Assembly (NCBI RefSeq): GCF_003334355.1
Contig: NZ_QOWP01000032.1
DNA: 40,572 nucleotides
Source of the DNA: Escherichia coli
GTDB lineage: Bacteria > Pseudomonadota > Gammaproteobacteria > Enterobacterales > Enterobacteriaceae
Direction: 5' to 3' (one strand)
Shown: positions 39,412 to 39,440 of the stretch, one piece after another
Layout of the letters: every line of letters starts with the position of its first letter
Position numbering within the stretch: position 1 is the stretch's first letter
Notes under the pieces: model-generated
The model's input: the letters and a program-made list of their open reading frames with translations, nothing else
The model's database searches: none
Told to the model about the DNA's origin: nothing
Made by a program: the position numbers and the translations under genes

Positions 39412-39440
39412 AATGAGGGTTGCCCGGCAACCCTCATTGC
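39412..39440 (+). terminator. Long perfect hairpin downstream of yeeX, with no clear T run
   Basis: AATGAGGGTTGCC / GGCAACCCTCATT inverted repeat. Confidence 0.5.

What the first reader, a model, noticed from the sequence alone, without database searches (positions are those of the whole stretch)
39412..39440. 13-bp perfect inverted repeat after yeeX without a U tract
AATGAGGGTTGCC / GGCAACCCTCATT forms a strong hairpin directly after the yeeX stop, but it is followed by gctcattg rather than a T run. It could be a Rho-dependent or bidirectional terminator, an RNA-stability element, or a protein-binding site at the edge of the mobile-element remnants.
Basis: seen in the sequence. Interest (0 to 1): 0.25.

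Follow-up and report, generated by a model that had tools for sequence, protein, structure and literature searches.

The report
Protective hairpin ending tmaR (yeeX) mRNA
The palindrome after yeeX (now tmaR) is a real, conserved RNA hairpin that marks the stable 3' end of the tmaR mRNA, while Rho stops transcription about 150 bases further on; this is an ordinary, already described way for E. coli genes to end.

Summary
A perfect inverted repeat lies at 39411-39439, 13 nt after the tmaR (yeeX) stop. It folds as a 13-bp stem with a 3-nt loop (-20.5 kcal/mol), has no U tract, and is not expected by chance.

It is single-copy and present in 5418 of 5426 complete E. coli genomes, so it is not a mobile-element scar. 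It sits in the ancestral gap between convergent tmaR and the last pdu gene (pduV, here a remnant called yoeF).

Homologous hairpins in Escherichia, Citrobacter and Salmonella keep the stem through compensatory changes. G·U pairs and stability are kept only on the tmaR-sense strand.

Published K-12 data cover this site; the window differs from K-12 at only 3 positions from the hairpin to 39912.
- Term-seq puts the dominant tmaR 3' end 1-3 nt after the stem in three conditions.
- A second study puts it 4-5 nt after the stem.
- Bicyclomycin data place a strong Rho termination region 156 nt downstream (Rho score 14.2).

Best explanation: Rho terminates in the C-rich, G-poor RNA downstream, and 3'-5' exonucleases trim back to the hairpin, which protects the mRNA (the Dar and Sorek 2018 class). 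It is a known kind, already listed in published tables. Interest is low.

The parts
39068..39397 (+). tmaR (yeeX) coding sequence, 109 aa, the gene whose mRNA ends at the hairpin
   Evidence: ORF list. RefSeq annotation of an identical region gives tmaR, DUF496 family protein. K-12 b2007 is PTS system regulator TmaR.
39411..39439 (+). 3'-terminal stem-loop of the tmaR mRNA: 5' arm 39411-39423, loop 39424-39426 (CCG), 3' arm 39427-39439
   Evidence: Perfect inverted repeat. Folds at -20.5 kcal/mol, z -6.2. Arms invariant in 9 aligned E. coli strains, with the only change inside the hairpin in the loop. Stem kept by compensatory changes across three genera.
39440..39444 (+). [quoted passage not shown]
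   Evidence: Adams et al. 2021 Supplementary file 1. TRS paper Supplementary Data 2-4. Coordinate mapping. The window differs from K-12 at 3 positions between the hairpin and 39912.
39440..39680 (+). Untranslated, C-rich and G-poor RNA downstream of the hairpin (antisense to the pduV remnant); inferred Rho loading (rut) and termination zone. The published Rho peak is equivalent to about 39596.
   Evidence: 62 C against 38 G (ratio 1.63); only 5.7% of 241-nt windows in the window reach this. 80-nt sub-windows reach 2.1-2.3. Rho termination region at MG1655 2078833 (-), Rho score 14.16, p 4.5e-50.
39498..39680 (-). pduV remnant (yoeF; EutP/PduV family, 60 codons annotated), the convergent neighbour; full-length pduV in E. 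coli strains that keep the pdu operon
   Evidence: RefSeq annotation. Intact 147-aa pduV next to pduU in LF82 and STW0522-31.
39433..39446 (+). Tandem heptamer CTCATTG CTCATTG: the end of the 3' arm plus a second copy. The second copy could pair weakly with 39410-39417 instead.
   Evidence: Sequence. Inverted repeat I5. TCATTGA after the stem is kept in four of five other Escherichia lineages, and is TCATTAA in E. albertii. No function shown.

Best explanation
The palindrome encodes the 3'-terminal stem-loop of the tmaR (yeeX) mRNA. RNA polymerase reads through it. Rho then loads on the untranslated, C-rich and G-poor RNA that follows and stops transcription roughly 100-250 nt downstream. 3'-to-5' exonucleases (PNPase and RNase II in the published model) digest the tail back to the base of the 13-bp hairpin, which blocks them. 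This leaves a stable mRNA with a roughly 45-nt 3' UTR ending 1-5 nt past the stem. Shown: the hairpin, its conservation, its strand bias, the mapped 3' end and the Rho dependence of downstream transcription. Inferred: the trimming step and the stabilising effect at this particular gene.
For: Structure: perfect 13-bp stem, -20.5 kcal/mol, z about -6, not expected by chance. No U tract and no canonical terminator call.

Population: single copy, present in 5418 of 5426 E. coli genomes. The arms are invariant while the loop and flanks vary.

Phylogeny: on 15 homologous hairpins from Escherichia, Citrobacter and Salmonella, 95.8% of cells pair and 7 of 13 pairs carry double (compensatory) changes. 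0 of 500 shuffles reach the covariation score, and slid controls pair at 34-57%.

Strand: 13 G·U cells against 4 A·C cells on the tmaR strand. The plus-strand energy stays between -18.6 and -21.6 kcal/mol in all 15, while the minus strand falls as low as -11.8.

Position: all 79 usable Enterobacteriaceae loci have a stable hairpin (mean -20 kcal/mol) starting a median of 10 nt after the tmaR stop. 31 have a run of five or more T at the 3' side and 48 do not.

Experiment in K-12, whose hairpin is identical and which differs from the window at only 3 positions between the hairpin and 39912:
- Term-seq finds a dominant 'primary' yeeX 3' end at 2078989 (read counts 205828 and 66213) and at 2078987 (32403). 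These are 1 and 3 nt after the stem.
- An independent method places it at 2078985/6.
- With and without bicyclomycin, the 800-nt window counts upstream/downstream of 2078833 (-) change from 248/25 to 290/414: Rho score 14.16, p 4.5e-50, 156 nt downstream of the hairpin (method).
- The downstream RNA has C/G 1.63 over 241 nt, which only 5.7% of such windows reach.

This matches the class defined by Dar and Sorek 2018: a precise 3' end immediately after a stable stem-loop without uridines, with rut sites just downstream and trimming by PNPase and RNase II.
Against: No exonuclease-mutant data were seen for this gene, so trimming is inferred from the genome-wide model. The Dar and Sorek tables were not available, so I could not check whether they list this site. 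Bicyclomycin also unmasks antisense and prophage promoters, and the downstream region in K-12 is the CP4-44 prophage, so part of the rise from 25 to 414 may not be tmaR read-through. The tail after the stem is moderately U-rich (CUCAUUGAUUCUU), so some hairpin-assisted pausing or weak intrinsic release is not excluded. All experimental data come from K-12, not from this strain. The covariation alignment was hand-anchored on the hairpins, which favours pairing.
Confidence: 0.8

Rival explanations
1. The hairpin is itself a non-canonical, U-poor intrinsic terminator. It releases RNA polymerase at or just after the stem, and Rho only mops up the leak.
For: The stem is as stable as those of true intrinsic terminators. 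The tail has 7 U in the first 13 nt. In 31 of 79 related loci the same position holds a canonical stem plus T-run terminator, so termination here is the conserved need. Dar and Sorek themselves raise mixed or transitional cases.
Against: Only 3 T in the first 8 nt after the stem, so the scan does not call it. The mapped ends are 1-5 nt after the stem rather than 7-9 nt. With Rho inhibited, the downstream/upstream ratio rises from 0.10 to 1.43, which means little Rho-independent stopping.
Confidence: 0.1
2. It is a bidirectional element shared by two convergent transcription units. It ends or protects the pdu operon mRNA on the minus strand as well as the tmaR mRNA; in this strain the pdu side is vestigial.
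For: In E. coli the palindrome folds equally well on the minus strand, at -20.5 kcal/mol. The ancestral neighbour is a convergent pdu gene: pduV in pdu-positive E. coli, and pduX in Citrobacter, Salmonella, Kosakonia and Pseudocitrobacter, where the pduX stop lies 31-43 nt from the tmaR stop, adjacent to or inside the 3' arm.
Against: The minus strand has no U tract either; the stem is followed by AAUAAAACGGG. Non-Watson-Crick pairs are G·U on the plus strand, which are A·C mismatches on the minus strand. Minus-strand stability falls to -11.8 to -14.2 kcal/mol in E. albertii, Salmonella and C. sedlakii, all of which have the convergent pdu gene. The Adams et al. tables held no coordinate beginning 20790, where a plus-strand end beside the hairpin would fall; this is expected in K-12, which lacks the operon.
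Confidence: 0.25
3. It is a DNA palindrome bound by a dimeric protein (an operator or nucleoid-protein site), not an RNA element.
For: It is a perfect 14+1+14 palindrome, and the base of the stem (CA[A/G]TG[A/G]GG) is conserved across three genera.
Against: Spacing between the half-sites varies (loops of 3 to 9 nt) while pairing is kept. G·U pairs are tolerated on one strand only, which has no meaning for duplex DNA. It lies at the 3' end of a gene between convergent units, and an RNA 3' end maps exactly at its base.
Confidence: 0.03
4. It is a REP-like or mobile-element-derived palindrome left by the rearrangements next to it.
For: IS66 and IS3 fragments and island DNA follow within 300-800 nt.
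Against: One copy per genome, present in 5418 of 5426 genomes. It is present with intact pduV in strains that have no mobile DNA here, and it is homologous across genera. No Rfam family match beyond chance-level microRNA hits (E above 2.6).
Confidence: 0.01

Closest known systems
Protective 3' stem-loops of Rho-terminated E. coli mRNAs (Dar and Sorek 2018, NAR 46:6797, PMC6061677; hypothesis from Peters et al. 2012)
   Same: Stable stem-loop with no U tract and no upstream A tract. A precise steady-state 3' end immediately after the stem. Bicyclomycin-sensitive read-through and C>G RNA just downstream.
   Different: Exonuclease trimming was not examined for this gene. I could not confirm whether the site is in their own table, because the supplements are not held.
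Canonical intrinsic (Rho-independent) terminators, including the bidirectional A-tract/stem/T-tract type found after tmaR in Enterobacter, Lelliottia and Leclercia
   Same: Same position (about 10-15 nt after the tmaR stop), similar stem energy, and the same job of making the tmaR 3' end.
   Different: No U tract. The 3' end is at +1 to +5 rather than +7 to +9. Termination depends on Rho. The sequences are not homologous to the Enterobacter-type hairpins.
REP/BIME elements used as 3' stabilisers
   Same: Extragenic palindrome that can block 3' exonucleases downstream of a gene.
   Different: Single copy, no REP consensus, and locus-specific homology across genera.

Membership tests
Protective stem-loop of a Rho-terminated transcript (Dar and Sorek class) | Energetically stable stem-loop at the transcript end | tested here: met
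   13-bp stem, -20.5 kcal/mol, z -6.2, 0 of 200 shuffles as stable
Protective stem-loop of a Rho-terminated transcript (Dar and Sorek class) | Not followed by a uridine-rich tract and not preceded by an A tract | tested here: met
   The tail CTCATTGA has 3 T in 8, the upstream sequence is GTTTTATT, and the scan makes no call
Protective stem-loop of a Rho-terminated transcript (Dar and Sorek class) | Precise steady-state RNA 3' end immediately downstream of the stem | tested here: met
   Published K-12 Term-seq ends at 2078989, 2078989 and 2078987, and TRS at 2078985/6. These are 1-5 nt after the stem, and the hairpin sequence is identical.
Protective stem-loop of a Rho-terminated transcript (Dar and Sorek class) | Read-through downstream when Rho is inhibited | tested here: met
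   Adams et al. 2021 Supplementary file 2: region at 2078833 (-), counts 248/25 changing to 290/414, Rho score 14.16, p 4.5e-50. Caveat: the read-through was not shown to start at the tmaR promoter.
Protective stem-loop of a Rho-terminated transcript (Dar and Sorek class) | C-over-G bias (rut-like) just downstream | tested here: met
   C/G 1.63 over 39440-39680, which only 5.7% of 241-nt windows reach; up to 2.27 in 80-nt windows. The bias is modest.
Protective stem-loop of a Rho-terminated transcript (Dar and Sorek class) | 3' tail trimmed by PNPase or RNase II back to the stem; stem needed for mRNA stability | not testable with these tools
   Needs RNA-seq of pnp and rnb mutants or stem mutants at this locus
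Intrinsic (Rho-independent) terminator | A 7-8 nt U-rich tract directly after a GC-rich stem | tested here: not met
   No terminator-like site reported at 39411-39450 on either strand
Intrinsic (Rho-independent) terminator | Termination independent of Rho | tested here: not met
   Rho score 14.16 for the region just downstream
REP/BIME repeated palindromes | Many copies per genome | tested here: not met
   Median of 1 place per genome and at most 2
Bidirectional terminator between convergent genes | Functional hairpin and 3' end on both strands | tested here: inconclusive
   Convergent gene context is present and the E. coli hairpin is symmetric. But the minus-strand stem is weakened in several pdu-positive species, and no minus-strand 3'-end data exist.

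The most novel reading that the evidence does not exclude
Beyond passive exonuclease blocking, the hairpin could be a specific recognition site for an RNA-binding factor that sets tmaR mRNA stability or polar localisation, perhaps as feedback. Candidates are ProQ, which prefers 3'-terminal hairpins, or the TmaR/Hfq polar condensate. The strongly conserved stem base CA[A/G]TG[A/G]GG across Escherichia, Citrobacter and Salmonella would then reflect sequence-specific binding rather than shared ancestry or pduX codon overlap. Nothing I found tests this: a search for papers linking tmaR or yeeX with ProQ or CLIP-seq returned none with binding data for this RNA, and GlnZ pairs in the 5' UTR, not here.
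Probability: 0.05. Interest if true: 0.45.

Novelty: already known. Interest (0 to 1): 0.1.

Why it matters
It matters little beyond correct annotation. The element explains how the abundant tmaR mRNA gets a defined, stable 3' end without an intrinsic terminator, and it shows that the neighbouring mobile DNA is not involved. It is also a small but clear natural example of a point raised by Dar and Sorek. The same gene end is served by a U-less protective hairpin plus Rho in Escherichia, Citrobacter, Salmonella and Kluyvera, and by canonical intrinsic terminators in Enterobacter, Lelliottia and Leclercia. The U-less hairpin has been kept by compensatory evolution on the sense strand only. For engineering at this locus, such as tags or deletions next to tmaR, keeping 39411-39439 intact is likely to preserve normal tmaR mRNA levels.

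Tried and rejected
- Rfam at permissive E-values gave only chance-level microRNA-precursor hits on the palindrome (E 2.6-7, far below gathering scores), so there is no family match.
- The promoter/terminator scan made no call at the hairpin on either strand.
- Dar and Sorek 2018 and the nanopore E. coli paper have no supplements held, so their per-gene tables could not be checked.
- My first automatic U-tract classifier (T count in the 8 nt after the folded hairpin) mislabelled the Enterobacter-type terminators, because their A and T tracts pair and were absorbed into the stem. I replaced it with a test for a run of five or more T spanning the 3' half of the hairpin and the tail.
- Citrobacter freundii-group hairpins (GGGTCGCTGC..., CAGTAGGGGG..., CGGTAAGGG...) were left out of the covariation alignment because their homology to the E. 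coli stem was uncertain.
- The GlnZ-tmaR RIL-seq interaction was checked as a possible link to the 3' end; it lies 60-80 nt upstream of the ribosome-binding site, so it is unrelated.
- A literature search for ProQ or CLIP-seq data on tmaR found nothing relevant.
- The alternative pairing of 39410-39417 with the duplicated heptamer at 39440-39447 was judged too weak to matter: 8 bp with a 22-nt loop, competing with the 13-bp stem.

Full report
**1. The observation**

The sequence at 39411-39439 is CAATGAGGGTTGCC-C-GGCAACCCTCATTG. The repeat finder reports two 14-nt arms, 100% complementary, separated by 1 nt.

As RNA, either strand folds into a 13-bp stem (7 G-C, 6 A-U) with a 3-nt loop. The energy is -20.5 kcal/mol, z is about -6, and 0 of 200 dinucleotide shuffles fold as well.

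In 100 Markov shuffles of the whole window, no perfect stem of at least 13 bp with a 3-8 nt loop appeared. The real window holds only three such stems.

The tmaR (formerly yeeX) CDS is 39068-39397, so the hairpin begins 13 nt after the stop. It is followed by CTCATTGATTC. The consensus terminator scan does not call it on either strand. Rfam gives only chance-level hits.

**2. Context**

The flanking genes are sbmC, yeeA and tmaR on the plus strand. On the minus strand lies a 60-codon EutP/PduV-family remnant (yoeF, 39498-39680), followed by an IS66-family transposase fragment and further island DNA.

A 121-nt query centred on the hairpin is found once per genome in 5418 of 5426 complete E. coli genomes. 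It is therefore core DNA, not a repeated element.

Strains that keep the pdu operon (LF82, STW0522-31) have full-length pduV, preceded by pduU, convergent with tmaR across the same spacer. So the hairpin lies in the ancestral gap between two convergent transcription units.

The recurrent rearrangement breakpoints lie at about 39671-39680 and 39751, at least 230 nt away. One O157:H7 strain has an IS3-family insertion only about 23 nt after the stem and still keeps the hairpin.

In nine aligned E. coli strains the arms are invariant. The only substitution inside the hairpin is the central loop base, while the flanks vary.

**3. Comparison across genera**

A scan of one genome per species with the TmaR protein returned 80 Enterobacteriaceae loci.

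- In all 79 loci with enough downstream sequence, a stable hairpin (mean -20 kcal/mol) begins a median of 10 nt after the tmaR stop.
- 31 of them carry a run of five or more T at the 3' side. These are classical, often A-tract/stem/T-tract terminators: Enterobacter 13 of 15, Lelliottia 3 of 3, Silvania, Pluralibacter, and Leclercia 2 of 3.
- 48 do not: Escherichia 5 of 5, Citrobacter 17 of 18, Salmonella 2 of 2, Kluyvera 8 of 8, Pseudocitrobacter 3 of 3.

The U-less hairpins of Escherichia, part of Citrobacter, and Salmonella are visibly homologous. They share the stem base CA[A/G]TG[A/G]GG.

I built a 15-sequence alignment of these (A2; hand-anchored on the hairpins, which favours pairing).

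- 95.8% of cells form standard pairs.
- 7 of 13 pairs show changes on both sides.
- 0 of 500 column shuffles reach the covariation score.
- Slid controls pair at only 34-57%.

The non-Watson-Crick cells are 13 G·U against 4 A·C on the plus strand.

The plus-strand folding energy stays within -18.6 to -21.6 kcal/mol in all 15 sequences. The minus-strand energy falls to -11.8 (E. albertii), -13.9 (C. sedlakii) and about -14 (Salmonella).

The selected object is therefore an RNA hairpin in the tmaR-sense transcript, not a duplex-DNA site. It is also not primarily a structure of the convergent pdu transcript.

The loop length varies from 3 to 9 nt, which argues against a dimeric protein operator.

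**4. Published experiments**

The hairpin in MG1655 is identical and lies at 2078990-2079018 on the minus strand. From the hairpin to 39912 the window differs from K-12 at only 3 positions.

Adams et al. 2021 (eLife 10:e62438, PMC7815308), Supplementary file 1, gives curated Term-seq 3' ends. I assign conditions by the order of the tabs in the file caption.

| Condition | MG1655 3' end (-) | Read count | Distance from stem |
|---|---|---|---|
| LB, OD 0.4 | 2078989 | 205828 | 1 nt |
| LB, OD 2.0 | 2078989 | 66213 | 1 nt |
| M63 glucose | 2078987 | 32403 | 3 nt |

All three are classed as the 'primary' 3' end of yeeX. They correspond to window positions 39440 and 39442.

The TRS study (Nat Commun 2023, PMC10687069) independently lists a primary tmaR terminus at 2078985/2078986. 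Its table shows the same 13-bp fold at -21 kcal/mol.

Adams et al. Supplementary file 2 (DirectRNA-seq with and without bicyclomycin) lists a Rho termination region at 2078833 on the same strand, antisense to yoeF. The 800-nt window counts upstream/downstream are 248/25 untreated and 290/414 with bicyclomycin. That gives a Rho score of 14.16 and p 4.5e-50 (method). The position is 156 nt downstream of the Term-seq end, equivalent to window position about 39596.

The RNA from 39440 to 39680 has 62 C against 38 G (ratio 1.63). Only 5.7% of 241-nt windows in the window reach that ratio, and 80-nt sub-windows reach 2.1-2.3.

**5. Mechanism**

These facts match point by point the class described by Dar and Sorek 2018 (PMC6061677). 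In that class, Rho-dependent transcripts have precise steady-state 3' ends immediately downstream of stable stem-loops that lack a uridine tract. The rut sites lie just downstream. The long primary tails are trimmed back to the stem by PNPase and RNase II.

I conclude, with confidence about 0.8, that the hairpin is the protective 3'-terminal stem-loop of the tmaR mRNA and that release of RNA polymerase is Rho-dependent and occurs downstream.

Shown: structure, conservation, strand bias, 3'-end position and bicyclomycin sensitivity. Inferred: exonucleolytic trimming and a stabilising effect at this particular gene.

Caveats:
- Bicyclomycin also unmasks cryptic promoters in prophage DNA, so not all of the increased downstream signal need be tmaR read-through.
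- The moderately U-rich tail leaves room for a minor intrinsic component (rival, about 0.1).
- A second role on the minus strand for the pdu operon is possible in strains that keep the operon (about 0.25, not exclusive), but the strand asymmetry weakens it, and here the operon is gone.
- A DNA-binding site (0.03) and a mobile-element scar (0.01) are effectively excluded.

**6. Comparison with the known, novelty and score**

The element passes every testable defining feature of the protective stem-loop class. It fails the defining features of intrinsic terminators (U tract, Rho independence) and of REP elements (copy number).

Its 3' end, its fold and the downstream Rho region are already listed in published supplementary tables, although no paper I found discusses this gene's 3' end. 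[quoted passage not shown]

I therefore rate it as already known and ordinary, with interest 0.1.

One modest addition is the evolutionary picture. The same gene end is served by homologous U-less hairpins kept by sense-strand compensatory evolution in some genera. In others, unrelated canonical terminators fill the same position.

The most novel reading left open is specific recognition of the conserved stem base by ProQ or by the TmaR/Hfq condensate. It has no supporting data, and I give it about 5%.

Noticed in passing
window 39433-39446: The last 7 nt of the 3' arm (CTCATTG) are repeated in tandem right after the stem. The mapped RNA 3' ends fall inside the second copy. TCATTGA after the stem is kept in four of five other Escherichia lineages (TCATTAA in E. 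albertii), even where the stem itself has changed to CACTG. The origin (replication slippage?) and any role are unknown.
   Followed up: partly
L043, L045, L053, L057 and other Citrobacter/Salmonella loci, about 30-45 nt after the tmaR stop; window 39411-39417 on the minus strand: In Citrobacter, Salmonella, Kosakonia and Pseudocitrobacter the convergent neighbour is pduX, whose last codons and stop (…CTG CAG TGA) lie inside the hairpin's 3' arm. In E. coli the neighbour is pduV, 59 nt away, and the hairpin still holds CAATGA at the matching place. This suggests that Escherichia lost pduW-pduX by a deletion that kept the hairpin. This is inference only.
   Followed up: partly
L009 (E. coli O157:H7 F8492), about 23 nt after the hairpin (equivalent to window position about 39462): An IS3-family element is inserted just after the hairpin. 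It replaces the C-rich region where Rho acts in K-12, yet the hairpin is intact. This is a natural test case for whether tmaR 3'-end formation needs the native downstream RNA.
   Followed up: no
window 38952-39002 (+): A 16-codon small [19 protein letters not shown], lies between yeeA and tmaR. It matches K-12 yoeJ (b4818) by position.
   Followed up: partly
window 39913-40572: The window departs from K-12 at 39913 and from its closest full match (strain PSS-12) at 40145. This tail is multi-copy island or IS-associated DNA (median 6 places per E. coli genome), found next to yeeW/cbtA-type prophage genes and IS2/IS3 elements elsewhere.
   Followed up: partly
window 36725-36757, 28289-28321 and 21165-21191: These are the other long perfect hairpins in the window: TTTCCTACGGTGCAAATTTTGCACCGTAGGAAA (15 bp, no G+C-rich core), AAAGCCCCCGGAAGGTGATCTTCCGGGGGCTTT, and AAAAAACCGGGCAGCGCCCGGTTTTTT. 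The last two look like canonical bidirectional terminators. The sequence at 28289-28321 matches, on the opposite strand and apart from its central loop base, a Term-seq 'orphan' 3' end at MG1655 2090132 that appeared in the same table.
   Followed up: no
MG1655 2078889-2078898 (-), equivalent to window positions about 39531-39540: The TRS supplementary data list a weaker additional 3' terminus about 97 nt downstream of the hairpin in one data set. It may be a Rho-termination or decay intermediate.
   Followed up: no
L066 (record titled Chryseobacterium sp. 18061): A contig labelled Chryseobacterium carries a typical enterobacterial tmaR locus (93% identical protein) and closely resembles L073, Citrobacter sp. 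18056, from the same project. The record is probably mislabelled or contaminated.
   Followed up: no
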